A stretch of 64,000 nucleotides of DNA from Blastocystis sp. Blastoise (taxonomy: Eukaryota > Protista > Bigyra: Opalinata): the NCBI GenBank assembly GCA_039096225.1, contig JBBPEB010000011.1, positions 496,001-560,000 of the forward strand, read 5' to 3'. Positions 13,489 through 64,000 of this stretch are shown piece after piece. The notes under the pieces are model-generated. The model saw only the letters and a program-made list of their open reading frames with translations. It ran no database searches and was not told where the DNA came from. The first letter of the stretch is position 1. Each line of letters begins with the position of its first letter. Position numbers and translations under genes: made by a program.

Positions 13489-13522
<34 letters not shown>

Positions 13523-13524
<2 letters not shown>

Positions 13525-14870: not shown

Positions 14871-14919
<49 letters not shown>

Positions 14920-22153: not shown

Positions 22154-23885
22154 ATTACTATGTTTTTTTATTTTTTTATTTTTTTATTTTTTTATTTATA
22201 TTTTATTGTTTTATTTATATACATTATTGTTTTTTTTTATATATTTTATTCTATTTTGGCCTTTTTCTTTAAAAAAAAACTATTTTCAATATATGATATT
22301 TTTTTGTTAAATATCTTTCAAATACATATATATACATATCATTATAATATGATCATTACTATTATTACCTAGTATTACACTGGTGGGCAGCTTTTTCCCT
22401 TTTATACCAGGTTCCCCATAAATTTATACCAAAATTACGAAAAAATCGGTCTTTAATTTTTTTTATACCGACGAAAGTAATTTATACCACAAAAACAAAT
22501 ATAAACTTGGTATAATGTTGTGTGGACACTCATATAAATTCGTTGTTTTATATTTATATATTTATATCTAAGAAACTGATAGTAAGATGTTTTATTTGTA
22601 TATTAACTGATAATTTAAGACTTTCTATAACATATTCAAGAAATTATCCACAATATCTAGGACAATCATTTTTAATTTTGTTCGACAATTTACTTAATTG
22701 AATTATTCACGTATACTAACGAATTCACAGACTCGAAAGAACATAGAATTGAATATGAATTATGATAAAGTTGCCATTCTTATGAATGTCAGAAAATTGT
22801 CACTGGTGGACCATTTTTCTTGTCTAGGGTTAGGGTTAGTGTTTGAGTTCAGTTTAAAACAAAAAAAGAAAAAAATCGGTCGAAAAAAAGTCTTTAACTA
22901 ACAAAAGAAAAAATTGTATCACTATGAGGCACTTTTTAATTTTTAAAGCTTCTTGATTGGCTAATTTTCGTTCAGAACTTATTCAGCCAATAAAATTTGA
23001 ATAAAAAAAAGACTTAGGCAAAAAAATGAAAATTTTCACAAAATTTATAAGTCGACTGTTAATTTAGACACAAAGACCCTGTTAGACAAATTTTATTAAA
23101 GAATTAACATTATTTTTTTATATCAGTGGGTCACACAATATCAAAAACGTTTTTATTTATTTTAAAGTCGCAATTCCGACAAATATTGGGGTCAATATTT
23201 TAAAACCTTTTGTTGCTCTGTTTAAAGTTTAGACCCTCTTGGAGTCATAAATGTAATTAAAAGTCAATCAGCTGACCTCTATGGGACAAAACCAAAATTC
23301 AGTCAAAAAGTCAAAAAATTATATTTTTTTTACACTGAAAAATTGAACCGAGCCTATTTGTTCCATGGGCAATCAGACCAGAGTTTTGAATTTTTAAAAT
23401 ATTTACGGGAATATTTTTATTGTTTAAAAGTGAGTCTATTTATATTTTATTATATATCAGACGACATAAGAGTTTTAAAAGACTTTTTTCATTTTATTCT
23501 ATCATGACTTAAAGTTCCGCATACAAAGAGTATGTCAAAACTTAAAAAAAAACTACTTTTCCTCAGAATCAAATTAAAGTCTTTTAAAAAGTTGTTTTCA
23601 GAGTTAATTATGTATTATAAAAACGTTTCAAGTTATAATCAATAGTTTTTAGAACAGAATATAAACAGATCAGAGAGTCAACAAAAATGAGTAATTTTTT
23701 AAAACCTGAAAGTAGTGGGATACAATAATGTTGTGTCAATAGTGTAATATATAATTGTTAAAACTTGTTATTTTAGTATTGAGTCATAAAAAATTTAAAA
23801 AAATTTAAAAATGAATTTTTATGAAAATTTTTAGTATTTGACTAAAAAATTGACTTTAAATATGAATTTATCTTTATTTTTAATT

Positions 23886-27900
<4,015 letters not shown>

Positions 27901-28719
27901 ATAAGCTTCAGACATATATATATTATATGTATTATAATGATGTTACTTATATATATATATATATATTATCTAATATCTATTTTATCTATTTTTTATTGTG
28001 TTATATTTATTTATTATATTTATTTTGCTTAGTATTATTTAAGAATAAGATTATTCTAAAAGAATTCTTAGAAAAACAGGAAAAATGAGTAACTATTAAT
28101 ATAGTTTTTATTAATTTTTTATAATTTTCTTTATAAAGCATAAAACAACTTAAGAATCTCTCAGACATTCTCAGTTCATTTATTCACTAATATTAATATA
28201 TGATTCGTTGATATAAAACATATTATAAAACAAAAGTTGTAAATTGCGAATTATATCTTCATAAATAACTATACTAAATATATTTTTTGATTCTCCATTG
28301 CACTCTTATTAAAAATAAAAGATTATTGTATAAATATAACTAACAAATATATTTAATTGTAATAATAGTTTATTAAAATAGTAATTTTCTTGTTTAATTA
28401 AGTCCGGAAATATGTTATAATTAAATAATTAAACTTAATAGACATATACAACACTTATATATTAATTTATATTCAAATAGACTATTTTTAGTAGAGAAAC
28501 AGAGAAAAAATTTAAAAATTTGTTCACCCCTGGAAATAAAAAAAATTATACAGACTTTTATTATAGGAAAAAAAAGATTTTATAAAAGGGCCACCCTATG
28601 TTTGTTTTATGTAAAAAAAATTTTGAATTTTGACATAAATCTTTTTATTTATTATCTATTAAAGCTTTTTATAAAGTTTTTAAAAATGTAATTTTTATTA
28701 TTTATATATCTTATATAAT

Positions 28720-29150
28720 ATAGGCTCTCTTTCTTCTCAAAATAACTACAAATATGGCTCCATTTGTCTGATTCTTTTCGAGCTAAACCATGGTGATAGA
28801 AACCCATCATGATCTTGATTTCTTGGTATTAAGCTAGTACGTGGTGTATCAAGTCCTCCTGATCTGATCCGTATTCTTTTAAAGTATATAGGTGGTTTCT
28901 GTCCTCTGGAAGCATTCCTATAAGGGTTACAAAGGTTTCTAAGGTATATTCTATATATATATATTAACTTTATAATTCATTTTTATAGTTTTTCCTTTTC
29001 CTGTGCTAGTCTTAACCAAAGGTTCTTCAAAAAAAGGTATATATTATCTAATAATATTATTTTAATATACTAATTTTATATTTCTTTTTAGTTTTAGTCT
29101 TAATCGGGTAATAGAAACTAGGAGAGGCTAGTAGAAACTATATATAATTA
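28720..29150 (+). pseudogene. Second small captured spliced-gene remnant in element C
   Basis: Short GC-richer exons with GT-AG borders and stops in all frames; positional counterpart at 48400-48920 (-). Confidence 0.45.
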
Positions 29151-29479
29151 AAAGTCTTGCTTATTCTTATATCTATATATATATATATTATTATGTTTTT
29201 CTTGTTAGTTATTAAATTTTGTAATTATTAATAAATTGTTGTGTTTTTTTAAATTTTGTTGAAAATCACTGAAAATTCTTAAAAAAGAGGACAGTTTTTA
29301 CACAAAACTATTCCCGTGAATATATTCTCTAATCATATGTCTGAATTTATCTTAAAAAAATTCTACAACAATTGGCGTTGATCTGCAAATAATATTTACG
29401 GGAATGCCTCATAGTGTATAAAAAAAATTATTTTTTTAAAAAATCAAAAATTTATTTTTAAGCTTATCCAGCTTTGTTG

Positions 29480-36239: not shown

Positions 36240-36288
<49 letters not shown>

Positions 36289-37634
36289 CTATTTCTTTAG
36301 GCTAATTTCCAGTTATCAGAACTTTTCAGAACTCCACGATATAGTGAATTTATTCGTCTTTTAACAAATTTTACTATTGATTCCTTTAAGAATTGGCAAT
36401 GGTGTAGTAATTCTTTTAGTTATTTACTTACTTTATGGAGTTGACTGATTTGTGCTGAACGTTATGTTCAGATCGGTTCAGATATTGATAATACAAGTTG
36501 TTTTAATGAATCTGTTCATCAATTAATACAAGCATATATTAATGGTAAAATGGAAAGTGTAGATGATTATGTTGATGATGATATGAATAACCCTCTTAGT
36601 GATACAGAAAGCTTAGCCATAGAAATGCAACAATTACCTCAAATAGTCAGATATTTTTTTAAGTGAATACTACATATATATGTAACTGCTTTGATCCTCT
36701 TAATGAAGAATATAATGTATATAGTATTATTATAATAATCTCTTTTTTTGTTTATATTTGCATTTAAATATACGTTTATATTTATATTCATTATTATATT
36801 TATTACTTCTATTCTCGTGTATTTCTAGACCCTTCTTTATCAATTTTCTAAAGTATGAGTAAATACTACAGATTATCAAGAATTGGCGAATAAAACAATT
36901 ATTGAGCAATATATATATTCTTAAACAATTATTTATAGGCTGTCTTTCGTGGTTTTGTAATACTGTTGTTACTGTTTTTATTAATCAAGTATTCAGCAAA
37001 CACAGGTTCAAAATAACTATCATTAATAGGTACAGAAGTTATTCAACTTAAACATAATGCTAGTTATTGACTTAACGTAAATATATATAAACTATATTAT
37101 AATATGTTATTATATATTATTATATATATTATTATATATTATTACATTTGTTTTTGCTTTCGTTTTTACAGTATATATATATATGTATAAATATATATAT
37201 ATAGAATTGATTTAGTAGGATTAATTCCAACATGGAATTATCATTAAATTTTCTTTGAACAATTCAGAAATATAGATATATATATGAGAATAAGAAGCGT
37301 CTTCCTGATGATACCTTTCTTGATATGAATTCCTCTCGAAAAGAGCAATTATATATATTTATTGGCTATGTATTAATAGATAGAAATTAAATATATATAT
37401 AAATAATTTATCAATATTGCATTGATGATTTATCTTATTTTTTGTCTAGATGTAAGAAGAGTAATATATTAAATCACTTAATCGATGTAATTTTGAATAA
37501 CCTTCGTTATTGGGAAGATAATACAGTGATTATTAAAAATTGCTTAGATATATTCCTTAATCTCTGTAATGATCATGCCTGCTCTCAATTACTATTAGAT
37601 ATATCAACTACTCAATATCCACTTGAAACATATA

Positions 37635-37636
<2 letters not shown>
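35889..37636 (+). pseudogene. XPO7: Captured exportin-7 fragment (copy in A2)
   Basis: Mirror of 13523-15273 with the same stops. Confidence 0.85.
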
Positions 37637-37670
<34 letters not shown>

Positions 37671-37937
37671 TTATTATTACAAGCGTTACACAGAAATATT
37701 TATTTACATTCTATAGATTCTGCTTTTCATAATTTTATTTCTCACTTCTAGATTTTATGATATTATAATAAGAATAAAAAGAATCATGTAAAGAAAATAA
37801 TAAGAATATAAGTATGAGTGCCTTATAGGTACTAATTATAATAATAATATATTATCTTATAATAATGATAAGAATTATATTAATGTTATAACTAAGAAGA
37901 ATAATATGAATGATGAAATTAACTTTTTTGGCGATAA

Positions 37938-42880: not shown

Positions 42881-45800
42881 TTAATTAATATAAGTATATA
42901 CTTCACAAAGAATGTCATCAGGGGTTTTATTTGTATGTATATCCATTACTAAAACGTTTGAAGCAAGAAATATGTTAATATTTTGGAATCCTTGAAACCC
43001 TTGACTGTCCATAAAGTGATAATATAATCCTGTTGCAGATGATAATGCTGGACCATAATCGTAATTCATTACAAATATGGAATCATTCACCTTTATATAT
43101 TTTAAGGCCTTTACAAGATGTGGCTGATGATTATTTTCTTTTTCATAATATATCAAGTATGAATTATCTATTCTATGTACACCATCATCAACTTGGCTGG
43201 TTGTATATATAAGTTTGTTATTAACAAGGATTCTATCATAGAAACTAACAGATAGTTTATTATAATTATCCTTCAACTGATGAAAATTATTTTCTATAAA
43301 TAAGTTTAAATTATAATTTCTATTTTCTCCTGTCCAACCAATAATACCATCTATTAGATAATTAATAAGTGTTTGAGATCCTTCTTCAAGAATTATTTTG
43401 AGAAACTGGAAAAGTACTTTATCTGGCATCTCTATCGGTTCAGAATAATGAGAACAACTAGCAGAATATATATATGTTTTATTGTTTCCAACAGGATTAT
43501 AGTAAATAGTATTCTTATCATGTTGCATATCTTCACATGGTTGAGATATATTACTTATTTCGTTTCTGTTATTGGATCTTCCTTGATGATCATTAGATAC
43601 TAAAATTGTTTCTTTGGTTATTGATGACATGCAGCAGGAAATATTAAATTCATTGCGAGAATGAGATGAGTGCTTAATTTTAGAATAATATGATTCTGAT
43701 TTCCAAGTTGATGTTACTGATAAGCTTCCTGTATTTCTTAAACATGAGACCAAGTGCTGGATAGAATGTATTTGAGATGTAATTAATTGCTTTGGCAGTA
43801 TAAGCTCACAGAGAAATGTGAATGTAAAACATTTCTTTTCAAGCATTTCCAAGTCTTCGATATCATTCGCTTTATATATATGGCAATCATGAATAATAGA
43901 AGCTAATAATTCGAAAAGAGGTATTATAGGACTGTCTTTTGAATTAAAATCATATAATATTAATGGTAATATTTTAGAAACGAAAAATATTTTCGTGTGT
44001 GTATTTATTTTGTTGAACATTGTTTCATCTAGTATATAACGAAACTGGTATTCACAATCCCCATATATACTATTAACTGCTGAGATACGTGTTTCCAAAA
44101 TGCTTTTATTTGTTGGGTTTAGTTCAAATGGTTTCCTCTGGTTTTCTTTAGTATTATCATTTTCTTTTTCATTTGAGGATGTCTTTTTATTCGATTGATC
44201 TTCCTTCATATTACTTACATTACTATCTTCCTTCATATTACTATCTTCCTTCATATTACTTTCATTACTATCTTCCTTCATATTACATTTATTACTATCT
44301 TTCTTCTTCTTACCTTTATTACTATTTTTCCTCTTCTTACCTTTATTACTTTCTTTCTTCTTCTTACTTTTATTACTTTCTTCCTTCTTCTTACTTTTAT
44401 TTTTATTTTCCTTCTTGAATCCAAATAATAAACTTAATAAAGTATTACAAACATTTCCAAAAAGATGCATAGTATCTAATGGAAATGATGTTGAAGGATT
44501 AAAGTAGCTAAGTTGTTCAGAAGTACTTCTTACCTTTTTTATTCCTTTATTGTAGGATGGATTATCATTATTACTACTTCTTATTTCAGTAATTACTTCT
44601 TTAGAATATGGATTGTATCTAATATTAGTAAATGAATCTTCATATAACTTACAACTCTTCGAAAAGGATTTGTACATGATATATGGTTTACTATTTATAT
44701 AAGTATTCGTTTTATTAATCCATTTAAGAAGAAACTGATAACATGGAATATATATATGGACTCCAGTATTCGACTTTTGAACTGATATAGATACATGAGA
44801 ATAGGAACACTTCATACCTTCATGTAATAGTTCAGCATGCTTATCGCTTTGCATATCGCAAAATCTACAAGGATATGTAGATGATGGACCTAAAAATTTA
44901 CCTACATGAGATAATGCTGCAGAATCTCCAAATGTATTAATTAATATGCCAACTACTTTCCTATTCTGTAATCTCCCATCAAGATAAATATCCATGTTTA
45001 TTCCAGCTTGGAGTAACTTGAATTCAGCCATCAGTATATCAAGGCATAAGTCAATAGAAGGCTCATCTACGCAAGTATACATATAGAACTCTCTTTTATC
45101 GTACTTTCTAAATTTCTTATAATTTAATAATTGGATCAAAATTGGGTTTGAAGAACTATTCTGCTTAGTAACAGCCTTATCAAACATCGATATACCGTCT
45201 GTAGTAACGTTGAATGATAAAATGATATCACCATTATTGGCACAATCTCTAAGATATGATTTATAATTCATTCCTAGCATGTAATTTGGTATATTTTGAA
45301 TCATTGAATCTAGGTTACTATTATTAAGACTACTATATATTTGTTCTATCTCATCTTTTCGATAAAATTCAATATCTTGTATATAATATGGAGATGAAAG
45401 TATGGCTTGAAGTCGGGGAATTAGTGGAATAATAACTTGTTTGTTACCTATATAAGAATTATATAATGTTTTGTGATATATATATATATATATATAACTA
45501 CTTCTAGAAATATATACATATATTTCCGTTGCATATAGGATTACTACATGTTATATCTTTAAATAATGGATATGCTTGTATTGTATTATATGTATGTATT
45601 ACATGACACTTATTACATGAAAATATATTTATATGAAGAGGCTTATATATAGAATTTCTAACATATTTTCTTACAATATTTTGTGAGCATTTGGGTATTG
45701 TTAATATAGGAAGATCAATGTCAAATTCGCTTATTAAATTATTTATTAATTCATACAAATTTGCTACTTTTTGAAAGCTAATACCTAGTTTTCTCCAACA

Positions 45801-46132
45801 CTCAAAAATTAGGTCATTCATGGCATCCTCTTTTGTACTCACTTTCTCATGAATTATCTAGATAAAATGATTAGTAGGTATTGTGTTGAAGAAATATAAT
45901 AATGGCTTATATTAAAAGAGAGGTATATATTATATATATATTAATATAAACCGTATACTTTTTGTGATAAGATGAGTTGCATGATCTGCCTTATAATATC
46001 ACCATTTTCTATCTCAATTGGTGTATTCTCATTATTTAAAGAAATATTCACATTGTTGATTTCATCTGCAATCAAGGTAGTTGATCTATGATAAGTGTCA
46101 TGTCTCTCAGATAATAATGTTGCTATGATCAT
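42881..46132 (-). CDS. CACTA transposase (copy A2), 3 exons
   Basis: The 807-aa main ORF and upstream exon ORFs are identical to A1. Confidence 0.9.
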
Positions 46133-46329
46133 TAATGTTATTTCTTATTTTTATATCTTACTATTTATTCCTGATTTCTTCTTATTAGATATCTTATGTC
46201 TATAATTATTCATTATAACAAATACTATGAAAAATGTTTATTAAAAAAAATAAAATTCATTTCTTCTGTAGAATTTTACTGATTATTATCACGGTTTTCA
46301 TATATATTTTTTCTTTTACTTTCTTTTTC

Positions 46330-47116
46330 ATGGAATCATCTACTTTATCTTCATTAGAAAGAAATAAAATTGATAGTCTTCAAGAAGATATCTATAAAGC
46401 TATCGAACATTATTTTAACGAATTAAAAGGTGAAGAGACAAATGGTATTTCAATTTAATTCTTTGGTAATAATTATTTAGAAAAGACTATTCGTTGCTCA
46501 GATGTTTTTATAGAATGTGAGGCTATGATAAGAAGACTTTCCATTAAAAGAGATATTCCATTTAGAAACAAGAAGTTGAATTCAAATAAATTAAAAGTAT
46601 TTATTGTATACATATATAATGTTTAATTCAATAGACTATAATAAAGGTAATTCCTTTTTGCTTACCTGAAGCTATACGAAAAAATGCAAAATCCATGTTT
46701 ACATTAAAAAAGAATAATATATGTTTAGATCATGAGTCAGAGGTCTACATATATATTTGTCGTCTTGCTCGTCTTTATTTGCATACATATGAGAAACAAG
46801 ATAATTATAGTGATGAAATTATAATGGTTTGTGTTCGTGAATGTATTACTAATCGTCGTCGAAAAGGCTCGTTTCCTCAATTCTTTGGGTTTCATTTAGA
46901 TAGAGAAATAGAAATACATGACTCAGGATCCTCTGAGATTGTATGCTTTTATACGTTTCTTTTATCATTCTTTTATATAATATTCTTTATTTTTAGTTTG
47001 GCAAATGGATTCCAATTAGTCCTTTTCCAAATACAAGTTCTTATACATATATACATTATGAAACAATAATAAACAATTTGCAGAAATGCCAAGAGATTCT
47101 ACCATTCTCAGGATAA
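46330..47116 (+). CDS. Second transposon gene (copy A2); exons 46330-46444, 46481-46596, 46635-46940, 46997-47116
   Basis: In-frame splicing gives 218 aa. Confidence 0.65.
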
Positions 47117-49759
47117 ATCTTTGAATTATTCTATTTTTCTTTATTCCTTTATTCTATTTCATAATGATTGGCTATTTATCTTCTACACTATAATTCTTTT
47201 GATTTATATTAAAATGATTGGCTAAGTATTTTTAATAGAATATATTTTTATGCTGACTTTATTTTTTGTTTTACACCATACATTCATATTTTATTTTATT
47301 GCTTTGTTTATCTCACAACAAAAATATCAATGAACATATTCAATAACTATACTCTTTGAAAATGTATTTTACTTTTAAACAGTATTAAAGTATTATTGTG
47401 TCTAGGTGTCTATCAATTTTCGAATCAATTATCTTGTTAATGTATATAATGTTGTAAAATATCATAACATCTTTTTATATAGAATGTCAGGTGTTTGATT
47501 ATTCAAGGGTAGCAAGTATTTTGTTTCGTATTTCTATAATTCTTTGTTACTATTATTTAATTAACTATCAATATCCCTTTCTTTAGTTGCTTCATATAAA
47601 TTGTAACGTGCATTGAAATGACAGCTATCTTTAACGATGTGAATTAGGTATGTATAACTATTTATTGATTTGAATAATTCTAACTTATTTTTTTTATATA
47701 GAGTATTTATAGACAGAAGTAATTACCACCAGTAGATAGATTTAAAAAAATGTTTTAATGTTATTTCACAATTAGAATTTATTTACAATTTACTCGTTTT
47801 GTTTTCTAATTTTTGTTATAATGGTTAAAGCCATAGTTGCGTATAGAGTAGTTTATGAAAATAACAAAGATAAATTTAAATCATTAAATAGTTTTTAAAT
47901 TAATTATTCAAAGAGCGACCAAAAATAATCATCGTGTATATACTAAAAATCTTCATTGGGTTTTTTTATGCTTTTTGTTGTTTATTCTGTGGAGGGTATT
48001 TTTTTTCCTTGTTTAATTGTTCTGAAAAAATCTTAAATCCAAAAAGCAAAACGTGACAAAGAAGGCCATTTTTATTCATGGAAATCGCTGATAGTGATGA
48101 TTTGAAATAATTATAAATATTCTTTATTAATTATTCACTATCAGGTATTTCCGTGATACTTTTTGGAGAGTTTTGCCAAAAAATGACTAAATTACTTTTT
48201 AAGACTATTTTCAGTCAGGCGAAAAGAGTAGCCAAAAACTAGGTTATTTTTGTCGAATATGGTCTTTCTTTTCATTCGTTCAGAATTCTTTTAGAAACGT
48301 CATTTTATTATTAATTTAATCGTTGTGTGAATGATAATCAATATATATATATAACAAAAGACAATAAATAATATATAATAATTAAAATAGCAAGAAAGAT
48401 AAGAAAATAATAATTATTTTGATTTGTTTTGATAAATTGGCAACTGTATCTGAGGACTATATATATAAATTGATAGAACTAATAATAATATAGATAATAT
48501 AGAATACATACCTTCTAACATCACTTCTAGACCAACTCTTGAACAAGAACCAAAACTATAAAAATAGAATGTAAAAAAATAAATATATTATAACAATATA
48601 CCTTCTAAATCCTAGCAGTGTAGACCAAAAGGGACACCAGAGAGTACCTAGAACCTATAAAAAATTAAATTAGTTAATTTCAAAAAAATAAAATATAATT
48701 AAATACCTTCAGAAGCATTGATTTGTTGACCAAGGAGACCTGAGACAATAGTTGAACCTATATAAGATAATAAATAATAATAGCAGAGAGAATGCTAAAA
48801 AATATATACCTTTAATACAACCAGATTTCTATACGTTCAGGCCCGGAAACTCATAAACTAACTTTAAAAAAGAAGACCAATTAGGACCTATTAGAATCTA
48901 TTTTGACACACCAGTAAGCCTATATAGAATAAGATAAATAAAAAAAATATAATATACATTTAATAATATATAAAATATAGTTGTAAATTAAAGAAAAATA
49001 AAAATAAATATGTGAAAAAGTTGAATCTTATAAACAAAGAGAAATTCCCCCTTACAATTTTTTTTTTGTATAATAAAATTCTTTACAAAATCTGGGTTTC
49101 CAGGGGTTAAAACATTTTAAAAATTTCCCTTTTTCTCTAATAAAAAGTCTATTTGAATATAAAAATGATTTATAAATGTAATATGTGTTTATGAACCTAA
49201 ATTATTTAATTACAACATGTTTAAGACTTATTAGAACAAAAATATAGTTATTTAAAAAATCTTTAATTACAATTAAATATATTTGTCTGCTATTTTTATA
49301 TAATAGTATTTTATTTATAACAAGAAGGTCCTAGATAATCAAGAGAAATATTTAGTATAATCACTTATAGAGACATGATTCAAAAATTTATAAACTTTTG
49401 TTTCTAATATGATTTATTTCAACAATTTATCGATTATTGTAGATGTATAAATAGAACGAGAATGTTTGAAAGCTTTGTGAGTTGTTTAAGACATAATAAA
49501 GAATGTAATTTATTAAAGTATAAAGTAGATTAATATTTACTCTTTTTTCTATTATTCCAAAAGAATTCTATAAATAATTTTATTCCTAAATATCAACAAA
49601 ACAAATAGAGTAATATATAAAGAAATAAAACAAAATAAAAGATAGATAAAAAAGATAATATATAGTATATATATAGTAATATATCATTATAATATATATA
49701 ATATGAATAATTTATTAAACTCCTTTCTATTCTATATATACATGATTATAAAACCATAT

Positions 49760-55060
<5,301 letters not shown>

Positions 55061-55465
55061 AAAATGAATTCATGTATAAATCCAAACTTATGAGTCAAAA
55101 TATAAAAATTTTCATAAATATATTAGTTTTTATTATTATTATTATTTTATGATAGTTTATTATAATTATAACTTCTCACACGTCAATTACAACTTTATTC
55201 ATACAATAACTATGTATTCCACTAATTTCAACTTTAAAAACATAACTCATTTTCTTTGACCCTCTGATGTGTTTGTATGCTCGTCCAAAAACTATAAATT
55301 CTTATTTCAACAATCTATCCATTGCATAATTAACTATAAAAACAACTTTTTAAAAGAATTTTATTTGATTCTGAAAAAAAAACTGTTTTTTATGACTTTT
55401 GACAAACTTTTTGGATGAGGACTTTTGAGTCGTGATAGAGTCAATTGAAAAATTCTTTTTAAAAC

Positions 55466-55582
55466 ATTCTTCGCACAAACCCAGGCGGCCAAGATATGGC
55501 CGACATCCCTATACTGCGAAGTTCTACGAACTTCGCTAGCATAGGGATGTTGCCCATATTTGTGTGGGTTTGTGCGAAGAAT
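55466..55582. repeat. GC-rich imperfect palindrome (117-bp terminal hairpin)
   Basis: ATTCTTCGCACAAACCCA / TGGGTTTGTGCGAAGAAT (18 bp perfect), ACATCCCTAT / ATAGGGATGT, and apex GCGAAGTTC-TAC-GAACTTCGC. Confidence 0.95.
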
Positions 55583-55670
55583 TACTAATTCTTATCATAT
55601 AGAAAAATCAAGGGAATAAAGAAAAATACACTATAAAATATATTTTTCACATAAATAACTATTTTAAACA

Positions 55671-56342
55671 ATTTGATTGGTTAAATCAGTGATGACGCAC
55701 CCTCTGTCATCCATTTTTACTTTTCTAACTTTTTATATATTCTATTTACTTACTTACTACTTTATAAAAAAAATGAATAAGTAAGTACGTAACCCCATAT
55801 ATACAAAAGTTTATTTTGACAAAAAAAGAAGCCAGTTCGGAATCATTTGATTGGATGAATCTTGGAACACAATTTATCATCCAATAAAAATTATGTGTTC
55901 CAAAAAGATGAAATTTGATTGGTTAAATCAGTGATGACGCACCCTCTGTCATCCATTTTTACTTTTCTAACTTTTTGTATATTCTATTTACTTACTTACT
56001 ACTTTATAAAAAAAATGAATAAGTAAGTACGTAACCCCATATATACAAAAGTTTATTTTTGACAAAAAAAAGAGCCAGTTCGGAATCATTTGATTGGATG
56101 AATCTTGGAACACAATTTATCATCCAATAAAAATTATGTGTTCCAAAAAGATGAAATTTGATTGGTTAAATCAGTGATGACGCACCCTCTGTCATCCATT
56201 TTTACTTTTCTAACTTTTTGTATATTCTATTTACTTACTTACTACTTTATAAAAAAAATGAATAAGTAAGTACGTAACCCCATATATACAAAAGTTTATT
56301 TTTGACAAAAAAAAGAGCCAGTTCGGAATCATTTGATTGGTT
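55671..56342. repeat. Subterminal tandem repeat, ~2.8 x 242-243 bp
   Basis: Units start ATTTGATTGGTTAAATCAGTGATGACGCACCC at 55671, 55913 and 56156; near-identical. Confidence 0.95.
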
Positions 56343-56526
56343 GAACGAAATGTTGTTCTTTAAAATATTTCAAATCAAAAAATGAATTTGATATCTTTTA
56401 AATTCACCCCTGGATTTTTGTTTCCATTATAAAAATATAATAAATGAAATATACCCCCATTGTTATAATTTTTATATATTTTTTTAATATAAAATATTTC
56501 TCATTTTTATTTTATTTTTGGAAAGA

Positions 56527-56943
56527 ATGAGTGAAGGTGCTTTCAGATTATTGAATTTCAAGGAAAAGTCAAATTAGTAAATATTTAAGATATATATATA
56601 TATATATTAATTATATAGTTCCGTTGAAGAACTTAATCAAATTAAGAAAGATCTTTGTGAATCATTAAGATCTCAATTAATAATGACTAAATTAAGTATT
56701 GATATTATAAAAAGGAATTGTCAACGTACTAAAGGAAACCAGTATTTATTAAGTAAGCAAATGATGAAATACTTTGATAAAGAATATTCTCCAGCAATTA
56801 ATAAAGCTTTAAATTTAATTGAAGAAAGTGATGATAATATTATGAATACAATTAATAAAAATAAAGAAGATTTTATTAATTTTGATAAATGTTTTGATAA
56901 GATGCTTGATTATCAGTCTAGAATATCGAAATATTTTCATTAA
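56527..56943 (+). CDS. Viral hypothetical protein with a 42-nt intron (56577-56618), ~124 aa
   Basis: MSEGAFRLLNFKEKSN(Y)SVEELNQ... joins in frame to ORF 56683..56943 after removing GTAAAT..TATAG. Confidence 0.65.
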
Positions 56944-57125
56944 AAATATTGAATTCCTATTAGTAGTTTTTTGTTTATTTTTTTAAATTTTTAAACCACT
57001 AAAATCGAATATTCTTTTTTAATATCTAAAAAAGAATAATTAGAACTGACTCTATTTAAAAATATATTTTAATAATTTCACATAATTTATTTATTTTTTA
57101 ATTTTTTAAAAGTGGATATTTACGA

Positions 57126-57410
57126 ATGGATAAGGAAATTAATAACACCCAGGATGTATGTAAAGATGTTGAAATGGATTCAGATCATCCTAAAACACCT
57201 AAGAAGCCCCGCCAACCCCGTGCAGTCTCAATAATTAAACGTAAAGGTGAAGATATTCAAGTTATTCCTGATTATTTACTGGTTTTCCTTAAGAATTTTA
57301 AAGTTATGCTTGATGATCTGCTAATGAATGATATGACCCAACGTCAGAAAATTGATGAATTATTTGAAAATGATGAATCATCAAATTCTAAAAGAAAAAG
57401 AACTGCTTAA
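57126..57410 (+). CDS. Viral hypothetical protein (94 aa, NLS-like KRKR)
   Basis: Clean ORF with coding-like composition. Confidence 0.6.
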   Translation: MDKEINNTQDVCKDVEMDSDHPKTPKKPRQPRAVSIIKRKGEDIQVIPDYLLVFLKNFKVMLDDLLMNDMTQRQKIDELFENDESSNSKRKRTA

Positions 57411-57685
57411 TTTGTCTTAAAATTATCATTAATTAATAAAATTTTGTTTTGTTTTCTTTAAAACTGTTGGATAAATATCTTTAAGCCCATAATACACAAC
57501 TCTATTAATTTTTTATAATAAAATGTAATTTAACCCCTGGATAATAACATTCCAGCCCCTGGATTGTTTCTCTATTATTTTTTAATAATAAACTTTCAAT
57601 ACCCCCTGGATCACTAAAAACGAAATCTTTTTTATTTTATTATAAATTTATTTTCATATTTATTTTTATTTATTTGGTGAAAAAA

Positions 57686-57922
57686 ATGAAATTTTCGTTA
57701 CAACACGATTTGATGACTGCTTGCTTAAATATTAAAAGATTGCAGCGTATGATTACAAAGATGCAGGAGGAAATAGATGATATGGTTGATACTATTGATA
57801 GAATTAATGATACTGTTCTAGAAGATTATTTAGAATTAACTGATGAAGATGATGATATTGAAGATCCTCCAAAATCACCAAGAAGTCCTCGAAGTATGGT
57901 CGAAAAAATCTTAAAATTTTAA
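57686..57922 (+). CDS. Viral hypothetical acidic coiled-coil protein
   Basis: ORF 57674..57922; first ATG at 57686. Confidence 0.55.
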   Translation: MKFSLQHDLMTACLNIKRLQRMITKMQEEIDDMVDTIDRINDTVLEDYLELTDEDDDIEDPPKSPRSPRSMVEKILKF

Positions 57923-58022
57923 TTCATCTGCTTTTTATTTTTATCATATGAGTTTTAAATATATTCAGTTTTGTTTTGTTTTGTTTCTAAAACTTCACAT
58001 AATTATTTTATTCTGATAAAAA

Positions 58023-58958
58023 ATGAGAAATAAAAATTTTGATGCCATTAAGTTAGCAATAATCAAAAGTACCTATTGTGCTGGAAGTAAACGTAAATTT
58101 GCTATTATTATAGAAAAATATATTGAATATTTGCCTTGGGAAAAATTTAAGCAATTCTTGGAAAATCCTTATGCTTTTGCTGATGAATTGGTGAATAAGA
58201 AGTTTATTAAGATTCATGAACTACTGAAATTATCTGAATTAATCTTATATTTAATAAAGGTAAAACACTTTGAATCTAATTTTTGTGAAGATATTCATAA
58301 TGATTGGTTAGAATTTAAAGATATTATTAAGAGTGCTTATGAACAATCCCTTCGTGAAAAGAAATCTGCTAGAATAGAAAATCTTCGAAAAGAATATCCA
58401 AATATAGAATCATTAGAATGTAAACGTGATGAATTAGATAAAGATGATATACTTAGAATTATTATTGATTTATATATATTATGTCCTCCTCAACGTGCTG
58501 ATTATGGTATATGTTCTATTCAAACACCAGAAACTGTAACTAATAAAATGAGAAATTATATCATTTTTGATAAGAATAATGAAACTGCTGAAATTCATCT
58601 GAAAGATTATAAGACTTCATATAAATATGAAGAAATTATAATTAAGAATAATGATAAGTTATATGAAGATATGAACTATATGTTAGAAAAAGAACCTGGT
58701 AGAGTGTTTATATTTGAAAAGACTCCTGGTAAACCATTTTGTGATGTTAAAGATTATGATAGATATATTAATAATCATTTACGTAGATTACATCCAGAAT
58801 TAACTATTAATGGTTGTCGTTTCTATTATGCTACTACAAATTGTACTTCTTTTTCTTCTTTAAGAGATGATTCTGATAGATTAGCTCATACTAAAAGAAC
58901 TCATATTGGCAGTTATGTCTCTTTTACTCAAAGTGATTTATATAAAAAATTAATTTAA
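58023..58958 (+). CDS. Tyrosine recombinase/integrase (Polinton-like-virus type)
   Basis: PPQRADY (R), DYKT (K), TINGCR (HxxR variant), LAHT (H), HIGSY (Y) in canonical order. Confidence 0.85.
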   Translation: MRNKNFDAIKLAIIKSTYCAGSKRKFAIIIEKYIEYLPWEKFKQFLENPYAFADELVNKKFIKIHELLKLSELILYLIKVKHFESNFCEDIHNDWLEFKDIIKSAYEQSLREKKSARIENLRKEYPNIESLECKRDELDKDDILRIIIDLYILCPPQRADYGICSIQTPETVTNKMRNYIIFDKNNETAEIHLKDYKTSYKYEEIIIKNNDKLYEDMNYMLEKEPGRVFIFEKTPGKPFCDVKDYDRYINNHLRRLHPELTINGCRFYYATTNCTSFSSLRDDSDRLAHTKRTHIGSYVSFTQSDLYKKLI

Positions 58959-59045
58959 TTATTATTTGTTTATTTAAAAAAAAGTTGTTTAGTTTTAAAA
59001 AAATTATTTTATTATAACAAAACACAATAATTATAAAAACATATA

Positions 59046-59531
59046 TTAATGACAATTATTATTAGAGAATAAATTAATAGGATTAGGAGAAAAATTATAA
59101 TTATTTAAGACTTCATTAGTAGACGGCAAGGAGTAGAAATCTTCATGATTTTGTATATCTTTTGGAATAGGGATATTAACTTGTTTTTCAAGTTGTGTAG
59201 ATAAATGAGGCATCGTTTCAGAATTAACAGGATTTGAGATAGGAGACGTGACATTGATTTGATTTTTTTCTTTGTTTCTTGAGTGTTCTTCAATTTCATA
59301 GTATAAATTATCTAAAGTATTTTCTAAATATTGTTTTTGTTCAGGATTAGAAATATAAATGATTAAATTTCTAATAGAATCTAATTCTCTCTTTTGTATT
59401 GGACGAGTATGAAAATTAAGAAATTGTTCAATCAATTTAAAGAAATCATTTCCTTTACATTTACATGCATCTAATTGCAGACTTTTAATATTTTTTGAGA
59501 ATGTTGGCCACGGTAGAGGTTGACGATACAT
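59046..59531 (-). CDS. Viral hypothetical protein (161 aa)
   Basis: Clean ORF co-oriented with the protease and core genes. Confidence 0.6.
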   Translation of the reverse strand: MYRQPLPWPTFSKNIKSLQLDACKCKGNDFFKLIEQFLNFHTRPIQKRELDSIRNLIIYISNPEQKQYLENTLDNLYYEIEEHSRNKEKNQINVTSPISNPVNSETMPHLSTQLEKQVNIPIPKDIQNHEDFYSLPSTNEVLNNYNFSPNPINLFSNNNCH

Positions 59532-59600
59532 ATTAATTAAAAAATAAATAATTATGATTAATGTTTTAATCTAATAAAATATATTCGTTTTTATATTCGT

Positions 59601-60197
59601 TTATGTAGGTATGATGGTACCTAAACTAGTTAAATATAATAATGCATAATAGAAACATCCATTAGAGTTTGAAGCAGTACTTTGGAATTGAATAGGGTTG
59701 TATTGAATATTATGTGTCTTAATAAATTGTGGAGAAAATTCTGGAGAATTCCCAAGACTGGAATAGAATTTCATATGTTCTGGACTTTCATAGATAACAG
59801 CTTCAAAATGACCGAAATTAGGGTCATCTTCAGATTGATGAAATAACATATTAAAGTTAGATTTTATATTATCAATATTATGTTCAAAATCATTTAAATT
59901 ATCCCAATATTTCCATGAACCTTTACATTGTGTATTCAGATTTTTCATTGTAGAATCTGCTATATCACATGCAACAGGGTCACATGGATTATTTAAATAT
60001 CCATATTTATATATTTTTGAAATTAAGTTTCTATTAATTATACCAGATAATTGAGCCAATGATTTAGCTATACTATCCAGAGGTTTAGGCTGACTAGATA
60101 ATTGTTTATCAGAATAAATTTTTGTATTACAATTTAATTTATCTTGAATAATATCTTCATCAGGGCTCACTTTTAAACCTCTGGTTGGTAGTTTTTT
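59601..60197 (-). CDS. Adenain-like (clan CE) maturation cysteine protease, no ATG at its 5' end
   Basis: GHFEAV (His), FYSSLG (cf. YFDSFG), IQYNPIQFQ (oxyanion Gln), GCFYYAL (Cys). The frame stays open upstream through the A7 run of the core ORF. Asp and Cys spacing is non-canonical. Confidence 0.7.
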   Translation of the reverse strand, partial: KKLPTRGLKVSPDEDIIQDKLNCNTKIYSDKQLSSQPKPLDSIAKSLAQLSGIINRNLISKIYKYGYLNNPCDPVACDIADSTMKNLNTQCKGSWKYWDNLNDFEHNIDNIKSNFNMLFHQSEDDPNFGHFEAVIYESPEHMKFYSSLGNSPEFSPQFIKTHNIQYNPIQFQSTASNSNGCFYYALLYLTSLGTIIPT

Positions 60198-61291
60198 TGT
60201 AATCCAGCTCCTTCACCACAACCATTTTGTTGACATTGTCGTTTAGCAGCTTTACATTTTTGCATATATTCATAAAAGGCACGACCACGTAATTTTCTTG
60301 GTTTTTTCAATCCAGAAGCATTATTAGGTTGCATTGCTTCTGCTAATGCTCTTTTCTTTGCTTCTATTTCTTGTTCTTGATAAACATTATCTACATTATT
60401 ATCTAATTTATTATTTTCATTGGCTTTTCTCCAAAATTCAGGTGTGAATATTTTACCAATTGCACGTGGAATTGCTGCAATATTATTTCCTAAATTCGTG
60501 ACACCATCTTTTATTGCATTTGGATTAGTTGCTAATCCTTCAAATGCTTTTGAAGCCGCACCAATACCAGCCAACATTGTAAGGAATCCACCACCTTCTT
60601 TCCAAAATTTTCCACCACGACGTACAGTACATCCGTTACCACTTGAATCACCTGAAAAATTAATATAAGAACACAATTGTCTTTTTGAGGGTCTTTTAAT
60701 ACCACATCCAACTTTATTTAACCCTTTACCACCTAAATTCATGGTACTTGCTATACTTCTTATAATTGAAGGTGGAATTAGCATTCCAGCACGAATTCTA
60801 TGTTTTGACCATTTCTTATAATCTTTCATAGCTTCTTGAGAATAGCCAGCTGCTTTTAATACACCTTGACCAATTGAATTATATAATTTTGACATTTCTG
60901 CTTTATTAAAAGCTAATCCATTTCCATTTTTAGGTTCTAAAGCATCTGATTCTGAAATTACTTTTTTATTTGTAATTCCACGTCCATTTCTTTGAATACC
61001 TATTCTTGTAACTGGATTAGCAACAACCAATGAACCACCAGAATCACCATTATTATCACCAAACATTTTATCTCGATTAACATAATTATCAACATTACCA
61101 TTATTTACTTTTTGTGTTTTTAATTGTCTTGTCTTTGCAACACTATTTTCAGGTATTGCTACCATTAATGGATTATGCCTTTCAGCATTATTTAATGGTT
61201 GTGTAATATAATTTCTATTTTCTTTTCCATGTCCTAAATGAATAATACCTTTATCACCTGGACTTGGATATTTTAATATAGTTTGTTCCAT
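60173..61291 (-). CDS. Basic Gly-rich virion core protein precursor with repeated GxG/GG cleavage-like motifs
   Basis: SGGSL, NGRGI, NGNGL, GGKGL, VGCGI, SGNGC, EGGGFL, GAGL; GGFLTMLAGIGAA resembles the adenovirus pX/mu GG[F/I]L amphipathic segment. Likely start MEQTIL at 61291. Confidence 0.65.
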   Translation of the reverse strand: MEQTILKYPSPGDKGIIHLGHGKENRNYITQPLNNAERHNPLMVAIPENSVAKTRQLKTQKVNNGNVDNYVNRDKMFGDNNGDSGGSLVVANPVTRIGIQRNGRGITNKKVISESDALEPKNGNGLAFNKAEMSKLYNSIGQGVLKAAGYSQEAMKDYKKWSKHRIRAGMLIPPSIIRSIASTMNLGGKGLNKVGCGIKRPSKRQLCSYINFSGDSSGNGCTVRRGGKFWKEGGGFLTMLAGIGAASKAFEGLATNPNAIKDGVTNLGNNIAAIPRAIGKIFTPEFWRKANENNKLDNNVDNVYQEQEIEAKKRALAEAMQPNNASGLKKPRKLRGRAFYEYMQKCKAAKRQCQQNGCGEGAGLQKNYQPEV

Positions 61292-61325
61292 ATATATATA
61301 ATAAAAAATAAATAAAAAATAAATA

Positions 61326-62126
61326 TTAAGCAATTTTAATTGTTACATCTGAATATTCATCATAATTTTTAATATTAAATTTATTCTTACGAATATATCG
61401 TAAAACCTCTTTATAATATACATTATTTCGACCTAATTCAACAAGCATATTCTCATTATCAGATAAGTATATATGTAATGTTTCAGGAGCAGACTTTAAA
61501 TAGTTTATTAACTTATTGTTATCAAATATTATAGGTATATATTTATCATACATATTCATATAGGGTGGGTCCATATAAATAATACCATTTTGTATATTTT
61601 TAAGTAAATCATGATAATAATCACCACAAATAAATGAAACAGGCTGAATTAATTCTGAAATTTCTTTCAAATCATTTTCAGTATAAATAATAGGATTAGT
61701 ATAATTACCATAACCAACATTAAATTTTCCTTCACGATTTATTCTCCATACACCATGATAACATGTTTTATTTAAATACAGAAATAATGCAGCACGTTCT
61801 ATAGAATCTTTACTTTCATTAAATATTGTTCTATATTTATAATAATGTTCACAATCTATTTTATCATGAATATTTTTTAAATAATCAACAATAAGTCTAT
61901 AATCTAATTGGAGTATTTTCCAAAAATTAATTAAATCTGAACACATATCACATGCAAAATATTTTCGAGTAATATTATTAGTTTTATCAAATTTTAATAC
62001 ATTAATTAATATTGTTCCACCACCTAAGAATGGTTCATAATAATCTAAATTATTATTAAATCGTTCTTTAATAACAAAATCAGAAACAATATAATCTTTA
62101 TTTCCAACCCATTTTAATAATGGCAT
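61326..62126 (-). CDS. dam: Dam-family (D12 class) N6-adenine DNA methyltransferase
   Basis: LKWVGNK, EPFLGGG, FLYLNKTCYHGVWRINREGKFNV, YMDPPY. Confidence 0.92.
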   Translation of the reverse strand: MPLLKWVGNKDYIVSDFVIKERFNNNLDYYEPFLGGGTILINVLKFDKTNNITRKYFACDMCSDLINFWKILQLDYRLIVDYLKNIHDKIDCEHYYKYRTIFNESKDSIERAALFLYLNKTCYHGVWRINREGKFNVGYGNYTNPIIYTENDLKEISELIQPVSFICGDYYHDLLKNIQNGIIYMDPPYMNMYDKYIPIIFDNNKLINYLKSAPETLHIYLSDNENMLVELGRNNVYYKEVLRYIRKNKFNIKNYDEYSDVTIKIA

Positions 62127-62264
62127 TTTATTTTAAGTTATTAAATTAATTATTTATGTCATTTAAATAATTTTTAGAAACAAAACACATAAAAAATATA
62201 AAATAATTAATAATTTAACAATATAAGAAAATAAGAAAAATATATAGAAATAATTATATAATAA

Positions 62265-63044
62265 TTAATCATCAATTTCATTAACAGGAACAATATAATC
62301 AAGAGAACTACCAAGTATCTTTAATTGTTTAAGACCACGTGTAATATACCATTCTTTATCATAATATTTAACTCTATCTAATTTCATAATAGCAATAGCA
62401 CTATCCAAGGCAGAAATGTATTGAGTACAATTCGAAGTATTAATGATTGGATTATAATGATTATTAATAAGCTTACCATCTTTATCATATAAATCAAAAG
62501 CCAATTGATTTCTAGTATTCTTAAAGATTTTTATACTTACAATATTCATTGGATATTTTTGCCAAGTCTTCTGTTGAGTAATAGCATGCATAGGAACAGA
62601 TTCATTACCAAGTTCTTTATCTAAATTCAATTTTAACTTACCTCTTTCATCATTAACGCTATCAGGAACATGTATCTTTTCAAATATCTTATGGCTAACA
62701 TCAACTCTAATGGCTTCCAATAACTTTACAAAATCTTTGTTTTCAGTACCTAAAGAACAAACTAAATACTTACTATTAGAATTACCAAAATCACTAAATT
62801 CATAAAGAACAACACATGTAGGAGTTTTGATTTGAAGAATCTTTCCATTATATCTTATCTTATATCCATCTTGACGACCAAGAGCAAGGTTTCTATTGGG
62901 TTCATCAGTTTCTTTATCGAGAGTAACAGTTAGTAAATCATTATTATAATCACTTAATTTAGATATTGTACAGCATTCTTCATGTAAATGACCAACAGCA
63001 GCAGCTTGGAACAAAGTACTAGATATAGGGGAAATATCAGACAT
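62265..63044 (-). CDS. Putative OB-fold ssDNA-binding protein (viral SSB-like)
   Basis: LQIKTP..FG..YLVCSL..F..LLEAI pattern, beta-rich C-terminus, acidic tail, adjacent to the primase. Assignment by pattern only. Confidence 0.5.
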   Translation of the reverse strand: MSDISPISSTLFQAAAVGHLHEECCTISKLSDYNNDLLTVTLDKETDEPNRNLALGRQDGYKIRYNGKILQIKTPTCVVLYEFSDFGNSNSKYLVCSLGTENKDFVKLLEAIRVDVSHKIFEKIHVPDSVNDERGKLKLNLDKELGNESVPMHAITQQKTWQKYPMNIVSIKIFKNTRNQLAFDLYDKDGKLINNHYNPIINTSNCTQYISALDSAIAIMKLDRVKYYDKEWYITRGLKQLKILGSSLDYIVPVNEIDD

Positions 63045-63110
63045 TTTTTAAATTAAAAAAAAAATTAAAAAATAAAATAAATATGAATTTAATAATAAAA
63101 TAAAAATAAA

Positions 63111-63320
63111 TAATGAGATACAAATGAGATACAGATGAGATATAAATGAGATACAAATTTATTATGATTGGATAATCTCGTCAGGTTTGATTCTCGATTT
63201 AGGATTTTTCATTTTATTATAAATGTTTTCATTGTTGACTTAGGATTTCGTCAGGTTTGATTCTCGATTTAGGATTTTATTACTTTATTATAAATATTTT
63301 CATTGTCGACTTAGGATTTT
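63111..63320. repeat. Direct repeats in the divergent SSB/primase intergenic region (4 x ~11-bp ATGAGATA; 2 x 70 bp)
   Basis: TCGTCAGGTTTGATTCTCGATTTAGGATTTT at 63178 and 63248. Confidence 0.85.
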
Positions 63321-63370
63321 AGTATTTTATTAATTTTAAATTTTATTTTATATTTCTTTTTATTTTTCTA

Positions 63371-64000
63371 ATGAGTACTGAACCTAAATTATCCTGTGAA
63401 TTTCAAGTATTTAATCAAGTTGATAAAACTAGTTGTCGTGCCGCCAAAATAATTGAGAATCCTGATGAATGGTATAGATCTGTTTTCGAAAGCTACTATA
63501 AACAAAAGATTGGTGAAAATACTGGTTTTGAAGAGCCACTACATTATGTTGACGTTGTTCCAAAGAATTCCGAAGGTTGTTATCGTCGTTTATGGTTTGA
63601 TTTAGATTTTTCAAAAGATACTAATGATTTCTCTATGTTTTCTGATGAAAATGTTAAAGTATTTCTTATTGGTTTATTTGATGTGTGTTGCCACTATTAT
63701 GATACAAATCTAGATGATATTAATGTTGTAATAACAAAAAAAGATGTTAATCAAAAGAAGAATGGATCAGAAATTAATTATTCATGGGGTTGTCATGTCT
63801 TTACAAATTTATTTGTTCTTCCTGATAGTCTTCCATGTTTTTATTCATTATTAATTAATCATTCAAAGATTAAAGAATCATGTGAACTACTTAATGTTAT
63901 TCCAGAAAAATTCATTGATAAAGCTGTAATTGGAAATAGAAGTCGTAATAATGGATGTATGATGCTTGGCTGTTCAAAAAATAATGTACGTTCTACTTAT
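63371..64000 (+). CDS. Archaeo-eukaryotic primase (PrimPol/D5-type N-terminal domain), truncated by the window end; missing from the ORF track
   Basis: 210 open codons from ATG 63371: RLWFDLD (motif I), WGCHVF (II), FIDKAV (III), MLGCSK. Confidence 0.85.
   Translation, partial: MSTEPKLSCEFQVFNQVDKTSCRAAKIIENPDEWYRSVFESYYKQKIGENTGFEEPLHYVDVVPKNSEGCYRRLWFDLDFSKDTNDFSMFSDENVKVFLIGLFDVCCHYYDTNLDDINVVITKKDVNQKKNGSEINYSWGCHVFTNLFVLPDSLPCFYSLLINHSKIKESCELLNVIPEKFIDKAVIGNRSRNNGCMMLGCSKNNVRSTY

What the first reader, a model, noticed from the sequence alone, without database searches (positions are those of the whole stretch)
55466..55582. 117-bp GC-rich hairpin exactly at the virus-host junction
Seen: homology of element D to element C stops at 55465 and a three-segment imperfect palindrome with a 3-nt loop starts at 55466. 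Known: incompletely paired terminal hairpins followed by tandem repeats are typical of poxvirus/asfarvirus ends and parvoviral self-priming termini, and protelomerases are tyrosine-recombinase relatives. Inference: this is the self-priming origin or covalently closed end, and/or the substrate of the encoded recombinase for integration or resolution.
Basis: partly seen in the sequence, partly recalled or inferred. Interest (0 to 1): 0.8.

Follow-up and report, generated by a model that had tools for sequence, protein, structure and literature searches.

The report
Long hairpin tip of gut-protist virus
A 117-base imperfect fold-back sequence sits exactly where a host transposon is broken off by a small Polinton-like or virophage-type virus in a Blastocystis genome; it is likely the virus's own tip and likely serves as its replication start, a longer and mismatched version of palindromic virus ends reported in a 2026 preprint, but its function is untested.

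Summary
55466-55582 is a 117-nt, 49% GC imperfect palindrome (z -11; strongest fold of 2130 windows). It starts on the base after homology between two CACTA transposons (D and C) collapses (10-18 of 20 matches per block before, 2-7 after). D lacks its last ~550 bp, so this is an insertion point. Inside follow 243-bp tandem repeats and viral genes: a tyrosine recombinase with intact catalytic residues (three near-identical copies on three contigs of Blastocystis sp. Blastoise), a likely adenain-type protease, a Dam methylase and an AEP primase. The element is therefore likely Polinton-like or virophage-type, not pox-, asfar- or parvovirus. The recombinase model is closer to Cre/Xer (Z about 12) than to protelomerase (Z 7), and the hairpin centre is not a telRL-type palindrome. 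Best reading: the hairpin is the viral tip and likely a fold-back replication start. Terminal palindromes were described in Halocafeteria virophages and PLVs (52 nt in the figured case, RVE integrase, TSD). This one is longer, mismatched and beside a tyrosine recombinase. Similar long palindromes occur inside distant relatives with or without the recombinase (9 of 17 versus 7 of 23 clusters). The far end and the other copies could not be read.

The parts
55466..55582 (.). 117-nt imperfect palindrome (hairpin): 18-bp perfect outer stem, mismatched or branched middle, 9-bp inner stem, 3-nt loop; four copies of CTTCGC/GCGAAG in alternating orientation (55469, 55516, 55531, 55574), the only ones in the window
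55577..55593 (.). small 8-1-8 perfect palindrome overlapping the base of the big stem on the viral side; repeats the first six bases of the hairpin at 55588; a possible alternative fold or nick site (inferred; about 1% chance, found after the fact)
48136..55465 (+). host CACTA-type element D, left end at 48136 (left flank ATT), broken off at 55465 about 550 bp before its expected right end; no closing terminus before 64000
22920..29416 (-). intact CACTA-type element C (3-bp duplication TAT); serves as the empty-site comparison, and its 22920-23471 part is what D lacks
55670..56345 (.). 243-bp tandem repeat, 2.8 copies, 98% alike, rich in CCAAT boxes (10.5 per kb versus about 1 in host DNA), with inner small palindromes; likely part of the viral end
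56683..57922 (+). three small ORFs (86, 94, 78 aa) without a convincing family match
58023..58958 (+). tyrosine recombinase, 311 aa; R158, K197, R266, H289, Y298 present, N263 in place of the first His; virophage/PLV/giant-virus family
59601..60212 (-). open frame for a likely adenain-type (Peptidase C5) maturation protease; first ATG only at 59948, so the start is unclear
   Evidence: a lead: recognition value below the tool's mark; no Pfam, PDB or homolog hit
60173..61291 (-). 372-aa basic, glycine-rich ORF; resembles virion core proteins by recalled motif only, no family hit
61326..62126 (-). Dam-type adenine methyltransferase; copies on the same three contigs as the recombinase
62265..63044 (-). 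259-aa ORF without a convincing family hit
63371..64000 (+). N-terminal AEP primase domain (PF23162, E 5e-7), cut by the window end; likely a primase-helicase

Best explanation
The 117-nt hairpin begins on the base where a host CACTA transposon is cut off, and it is likely the left tip of an integrated Polinton-like or virophage-type DNA virus, where it likely acts as a fold-back replication start. Shown: the palindrome, the sharp break in host homology, the viral genes behind it, and three near-identical copies of the recombinase and methylase on three contigs. Inferred: in a free genome that ends at 55466, the 3' end of the bottom strand would fold back, pair to its last base through the 18-bp stem and be extended into the genome, so no terminal protein is needed; the element's AEP primase (likely a primase-helicase) would do or start the copying, and the four CTTCGC/GCGAAG hexamers and the 243-bp repeats would be protein-binding sites. 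Inferred: the encoded tyrosine recombinase joined this end to the host at or within a few bases of the stem base, using little or no homology (possibly TCTT) and making no target duplication.
For: Palindrome start and homology end coincide within about 6 nt; only one such hairpin in 64 kb, rough chance of adjacency 4e-4. No trace of D's missing 550 bp behind the hairpin (local scores at shuffle level: 32 of 200, 94 of 200, 6 of 50, 7 of 50; positive controls 0 of 200), so the hairpin is not a small insertion inside continuing host DNA. Viral genes from 56683 on, with 0 microsatellites in 56683-64000 versus 18 in D. Recombinase catalytic set intact; model pLDDT 94; best folds Xer/Cre and viral integrases. 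Three copies in the organism named by the source of P0001. Precedent: palindromes at TIR tips of Halocafeteria virophages and PLVs, linked to non-pPolB replication genes, with the same proposed priming role (bioRxiv 10.64898/2026.07.28.741278, section 7 read whole). In distant relatives long palindromes often lie right beside a D5 primase-helicase gene (L021, L025, L032, L034; L022 is a mirror contig centred 470 nt behind it), which fits an origin role.
Against: Only one end of one copy was seen; no genome is held. In distant relatives the long palindromes lie inside the contigs, not at contig ends, so a palindrome need not mark a physical genome end and may sit in a circular genome. Tyrosine-recombinase PLVs are thought to integrate as circles (PMC12220804 and PMC12747079, passages), which fits an attachment site as well as a linear tip. 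No pPolB was seen in the 8.5 kb in view, but a pPolB or an RVE integrase beyond 64000 cannot be excluded, and no capsid gene is in view. The assignment of 55466-56345 to the virus rests on position, not on a second copy.
Confidence: 0.55

Rival explanations
1. The hairpin is part of the attachment site of a circular genome: the tyrosine recombinase binds it, as duplex, cruciform or folded single strand, and crosses over at the stem base, leaving the whole palindrome at one junction only.
For: Junction at the stem base with a possible 4-6 nt overlap; recombinase gene 2.4 kb away; long palindromes within about 2.5 kb of the recombinase gene in L012, L017, L018, L021, L026, L027, L032. [quoted passage not shown] Integron attC sites are folded imperfect hairpins recombined near the stem base (recalled).
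Against: Long palindromes are not clearly tied to the recombinase: 9 of 17 clusters with it versus 7 of 23 without, Fisher p 0.2. Classical att cores are split between the two junctions rather than left whole (recalled). The model is no closer to the integron integrase (Z 11.2) than to Cre or Xer (12.2-12.4).
Confidence: 0.25
2. The palindrome is an ordinary internal signal of this virus class (origin or transcript-end hairpin) that lies next to the integration site only because the non-coding control region does.
For: 16 of 40 dereplicated clusters of related viral loci hold a long imperfect palindrome, about one per 30 kb, none in 515 kb of shuffled controls; most lie between genes.
Against: The break falls on the first base of the stem, not merely near it. 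The nearest ORF starts 1.1 kb away and points away from it, so it cannot be that gene's 3' hairpin.
Confidence: 0.08
3. The hairpin is an independent miniature inverted-repeat element that landed at, or attracted, the viral insertion.
For: 117 nt with an 18-bp terminal inverted repeat is MITE-like in size; the region is crowded with transposons. The genome could not be searched for other copies.
Against: No duplication flanks it (left AAAAC, right TACTA; only the self-complementary AT if 2 nt are trimmed). No second copy in 64 kb. It is palindromic to its centre and twice as GC-rich as the host. Host homology does not resume behind it.
Confidence: 0.07
4. The palindrome is a telomere-resolution site and the 58023-58958 protein a protelomerase that makes covalently closed ends.
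For: Same catalytic superfamily; TelA appears in the fold list (Z 7.2); a distant relative, L022, is assembled as a perfect 9950-nt mirror.
Against: Z 11.7-12.4 for Xer, Cre and Tn1549 Int versus 6.9-7.2 for TelA; 15 of 89 family members hit Phage_integrase. telRL sites are cut across a 6-bp palindromic core (PMC13236599, passage), while this centre is an unpaired TAC. In phaeoviruses the telRL site is internal to the provirus, not at the junction.
Confidence: 0.04
5. The hairpin is an assembly or fold-back read artefact.
Against: Its arms differ by mismatches and indels (78% self-identity), and its sequence is not a mirror of either flank; a fold-back artefact would be a near-perfect mirror of neighbouring DNA.
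Confidence: 0.01

Closest known systems
Terminal palindromes of endogenous virophage subtypes 1, 2, 5, 6 and PLV subtype 4 of Halocafeteria seosinensis (bioRxiv 10.64898/2026.07.28.741278; section 7 read whole, other passages; figures and supplements not seen)
   Same: Palindrome at the very tip of an integrated Polinton-like or virophage-type element of a stramenopile; linked to non-pPolB replication genes; proposed hairpin priming, untested.
   Different: There 52 nt in the figured case, found with at most 4 mismatches, next to a TSD and linked to RVE integrases, at both ends. Here 117 nt, 78% self-identity with bulges or side arms, GC-rich, beside a tyrosine recombinase; second end unseen. 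Some Halocafeteria virophages also carry a Yrec; whether those have palindromes is in a figure I could not see.
Tyrosine-recombinase PLVs of cryptophytes and Tyrannomonas (PMC12220804, PMC12747079; passages)
   Same: YREC as integrase, no regular TSD expected, multi-copy proviruses.
   Different: No terminal palindromes mentioned for these PLVs (0 hits for 'palindrom' in both texts); Tyrannomonas YREC elements have terminal direct repeats.
Phaeovirus proviruses of Ectocarpus (PMC13236599; passages)
   Same: [quoted passage not shown]
   Different: Giant viruses of 350-400 kb; AT-rich repeats flank a 2-nt core; a separate protelomerase and an internal telRL site.
Parvovirus terminal hairpins and poxvirus/asfarvirus hairpin telomeres (recalled)
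   Same: Length near 100-125 nt, incomplete pairing, asymmetric loop that would give flip and flop forms, tandem repeats just inside (pox).
   Different: No Rep/NS1, no pox or asfar core genes in view; pox and asfar hairpins are AT-rich; these viruses do not integrate by a tyrosine recombinase.
Integron attC sites (recalled)
   Same: Imperfect hairpin of similar size with extra bases, next to a tyrosine recombinase, junction near the stem base.
   Different: No attC end boxes, no cassette array, eukaryotic virus; recombinase not specially close to IntI.

Membership tests
Polinton-like virus / virophage (Preplasmiviricota) provirus | Double jelly-roll major capsid protein, penton and A32 ATPase | not testable with these tools
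   Only the first 8.5 kb of the element lie in the window; no genome held.
Polinton-like virus / virophage (Preplasmiviricota) provirus | Adenain-type maturation protease (core in virophages and Polintons) | tested here: inconclusive
   Atlas feature hits 0.93-0.95 to Peptidase_C5 clusters (13% and 62% of members), recognition below the tool's mark; no Pfam, PDB or homolog hit.
Polinton-like virus / virophage (Preplasmiviricota) provirus | Integrase (RVE or tyrosine recombinase) of the family used by these viruses | tested here: met
   Atlas clusters 100% viral, mostly Preplasmiviricota; relatives lie beside virophage MCP (L013, L017, L023, L027) or A32 ATPase (L025, L032) among 13 loci scanned of 24 found.
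Polinton-like virus / virophage (Preplasmiviricota) provirus | pPolB or a primase-helicase replication gene | tested here: met
   AEP primase domain at 63371-64000, E 5e-7; the helicase part lies outside the window.
Halocafeteria-type terminal palindrome | Palindrome at the outermost bases of the element | tested here: met
   Starts on the base after host homology ends, within about 6 nt.
Halocafeteria-type terminal palindrome | Present at both ends within TIRs and next to a TSD; RVE integrase | not testable with these tools
   Far end outside the window; the only integrase in view is a tyrosine recombinase.
Halocafeteria-type terminal palindrome | Near-perfect palindrome (at most 4 mismatches in that screen) | tested here: not met
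   78% self-identity over 123 columns; the perfect outer arm is 18 bp.
Tyrosine recombinase | R-K-(H)xxR-H/W-Y catalytic set and Cre/Int fold | tested here: met
   R158, K197, R266 invariant in 89 sequences, H289 nearly so, Y298 present; folds Xer/Cre Z 12.2-12.4 over 263-274 residues, TopIB Z 12.9 over 171.
Protelomerase with telRL site | Target with a perfectly palindromic 6-bp core | tested here: not met
   Centre is an unpaired 3-nt loop TAC.
Protelomerase with telRL site | Enzyme of the TelA/TelK/ResT family | tested here: inconclusive
   TelA Z 6.9-7.2, well below Xer/Cre; activity untested.
MITE | TSD around the element and host sequence resuming behind it | tested here: not met
MITE | Many copies across the genome | not testable with these tools
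   One copy in 64 kb; no genome.
Known structured RNA family | Rfam match at gathering score | tested here: not met
   0 matches in the window; none on the hairpin at E up to 1.

The most novel reading that the evidence does not exclude
This eukaryotic virus uses one folded, mismatched hairpin both as replication primer and as the substrate of its tyrosine recombinase: the enzyme cuts at the stem base of the folded single strand, as integron integrases do at attC, and joins it to nearly arbitrary host DNA, so hairpin-ended genomes integrate without an RVE integrase or a target duplication.
Probability: 0.12. Interest if true: 0.8.

Novelty: new variant of a known kind. Interest (0 to 1): 0.42.

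Why it matters
How tyrosine-recombinase PLVs and virophages integrate, and how those without a protein-primed polymerase start replication, is open; the 2026 preprint calls its hairpin model untested. This locus gives a base-exact junction with an empty-site comparison, an asymmetric hairpin whose flip or flop form can be read from any second end, and three near-identical copies in a cultured gut protist, so the question can be tested with existing assemblies and reads. It also points to integrated Polinton-like or virophage-type elements in Blastocystis, which my searches did not find described.

Tried and rejected
No genome is held, so the far end, the TSD and the other copies were not read. 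Sequencing runs: no RNA holder listed on record; one run (X1, RNA is a guess) held 26% of the words. Its contigs match parts of the small ORFs and the recombinase at depth 2-6 but none covers 55424-55671, which is no evidence either way. The recombinase alone and its relative P0135 found no loci in viral or metagenome contigs; an alignment found only distant ones (24 viral loci; 1 metagenome locus). A 16-nt piece of the outer arm matched 10 viral contigs, 0 of 10 with a partner arm, so chance. Searches for the full-length primase, the protease and the methylase found nothing. Single-sequence fold of the recombinase was useless (pLDDT 37). No protelomerase Pfam family appeared among 89 family members; absence from that list does not exclude it. 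The idea that long palindromes go specifically with the recombinase was not supported (p 0.2); that screen missed the L034 palindrome (z -17) and left out the L022 mirror, so counts are lower bounds. Rfam gave nothing. Removing the hairpin does not restore host homology beyond a 6-nt TCTTAT match. Paper searches for a long palindrome beside a Sputnik-type integrase gave 0 papers. Earlier scan notes held nothing on this place or sequence.

Full report
Observation. It has an 18-bp perfect outer stem, a mismatched middle that can fold either as a rod with bulges or with small side arms, and a 9-bp inner stem with the loop TAC. Folded as DNA, 55440-55610 gives -47.5 kcal/mol, z -11.1, with 0 of 200 shuffles as stable. 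It is the best fold of 2130 windows and the GC-richest stretch in the window. It matches no Rfam family and has no second copy in the window.

The junction. The window holds four elements with CACTA ends (family definition recalled): A 3063-16683, B 34479-48096 (an inverted, 99.98% copy of A), C 22920-29416, each with its own 3-bp duplication, and D, which starts at 48136 and has no closing end. D follows C in reverse at about 69% up to 55465. Matches per 20 nt are 10-18 in the 12 blocks before 55466 and 2-7 in the 10 blocks after. C runs on for about 550 bp to its end, a part also alike in A and B; none of it appears behind the hairpin (scores at shuffle level, positive controls far above). 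So D was interrupted here by a large insertion, and the palindrome is the first thing in that insertion. C reads TCTT after the break and the hairpin starts ATTCTT, so the first few bases could be shared between host and virus.

The inserted element. After the hairpin come an 87-nt spacer, 2.8 copies of a 243-bp CCAAT-rich repeat and a compact gene array without microsatellites. ORF 58023-58958 is identical over its last 300 residues to a record that its source names a hypothetical protein of Blastocystis sp. Blastoise, with two near-identical partners on two other contigs; the methylase has copies on the same contigs. A search of 1.84 billion representatives gave 123 hits; the closest are a second family in the same organism (41%, 10 sequences, 19 gene places) and an unnamed Logan/ENA family (32%). 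R158, K197 and R266 are invariant in the 89 sequences aligned of those found, H289 nearly so, and Y298 is in place. The alignment-based model (pLDDT 94) matches Xer, Cre, Int and topoisomerase IB (Z 11-13) and viral integrases, and protelomerase TelA much less (Z 7.2). Other genes: a likely adenain-type protease (a lead only), a Dam methylase and an AEP primase domain. Relatives of the recombinase sit beside virophage capsid or A32 ATPase genes in 6 of the 13 loci scanned. The element is therefore likely Polinton-like or virophage-type; capsid genes, if present, lie beyond the window.

Relatives. Only distant viral loci could be fetched. After grouping 103 loci into 40 clusters, long imperfect palindromes were found in 9 of 17 clusters with the recombinase and 7 of 23 without, and 0 in 515 kb of shuffled controls (p 0.2). 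They lie inside the contigs, often right beside a D5 primase-helicase or the recombinase gene, and several are built of short repeated hexamers. Two things follow. A long palindrome is common in this class of viral DNA, so its mere presence is not surprising. And such palindromes need not be physical ends, which keeps the circular attachment-site reading alive. What is special here is the base-exact position at the host junction.

Mechanism. If the free genome ends at 55466, the bottom strand's 3' end would fold back and pair to its last base, the geometry of a self-priming end (parvovirus comparison recalled). That fits an element with a primase rather than a protein-primed polymerase in view, and it matches the model offered for Halocafeteria virophages and PLVs (bioRxiv 10.64898/2026.07.28.741278, section 7 read whole). 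I put this at 0.55. The main rival (0.25) is an attachment site of a circular genome, as in phaeoviruses (PMC13236599, passages) and as assumed for tyrosine-recombinase PLVs (PMC12220804 and PMC12747079, passages); the two roles could coexist. A small 8-1-8 palindrome overlapping the stem base (55577-55593; about 1% chance) could be an alternative fold where a nick is made; this is a guess. A MITE, a telRL site and an artefact are unlikely for the reasons listed under rivals.

Novelty. Palindromic tips of integrated virophages and PLVs are in print since 2026, and four earlier notes of this scan (AI notes, not checked by me) report perfect 42-50 nt ones in other genomes. This case differs in length, mismatches and integrase type. 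I found no paper on such an end with a tyrosine recombinase or on such elements in Blastocystis (searches; passages read in PMC10690189, 10.64898/2026.06.19.733378, 10.1101/2025.10.09.676808, PMC9356565, 10.1101/2024.03.23.586382; other hits seen as listings only). The library lacks most subscription papers, and the figures and supplements of the Halocafeteria preprint, which could show palindromes in its Yrec-bearing virophages, were not seen. Verdict: real feature, new variant of a known kind, function untested, interest 0.42.

Noticed in passing
window 3063-16683 and 34479-48096: Two inverted, 99.98% identical 13.6-kb CACTA-ended elements with their own 3-bp duplications (TTG, ATG), an 807-aa ORF without Pfam hit and a 138-copy 19-bp satellite; a very recent transposition.
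   Followed up: partly
P0004, P0126-P0134, P0006: A second recombinase family (41% to this one) with 19 gene places, and a third single one, in the same named organism: more integrated virus-like elements whose ends could be compared.
   Followed up: no
P0005, P0135-P0144: A 32%-identical recombinase family in Logan/ENA assemblies, one sequence on 89 contigs of up to 21.8 kb; possibly a widespread relative whose ends could be read.
   Followed up: partly
L021 381-643 and 10473-10751: A pair of about 270-bp inverted repeats, each holding a 140-nt hairpin, brackets a 10-kb block with D5 primase-helicase, GIY-YIG, SAP protein, a 369-nt palindrome and the recombinase inside a 26.9-kb contig.
   Followed up: partly
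L022 1-9950: Whole contig is a perfect mirror centred 470 nt behind a primase-helicase gene, with a recombinase gene in the arm; a closed hairpin end or an amplification artefact.
   Followed up: no
L034 5810-5950, L025 13896-14035, L032 10134-10468: Long palindromes next to D5 primase-helicase genes share GGCAA/TTGCC repeats, like origin iterons (reading recalled, untested).
   Followed up: partly
L018 7379-7689: 311-nt branched palindrome of 49% GC in a 28% GC contig, 2 kb from a related recombinase; the closest look-alike in composition to the window's hairpin.
   Followed up: no
window 63040-63370: Divergent intergenic region before the primase with short direct repeats (four 10-nt units, then two about 85-nt units); a possible promoter or second origin.
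   Followed up: no
window 59948-60212: The protease-like frame is open 264 nt upstream of its first ATG and overlaps the end of the 372-aa ORF; splicing, a frameshift or a non-ATG start may join them.
   Followed up: no
window 54263: A CACTATCAG motif like a transposon end inside element D.
   Followed up: no
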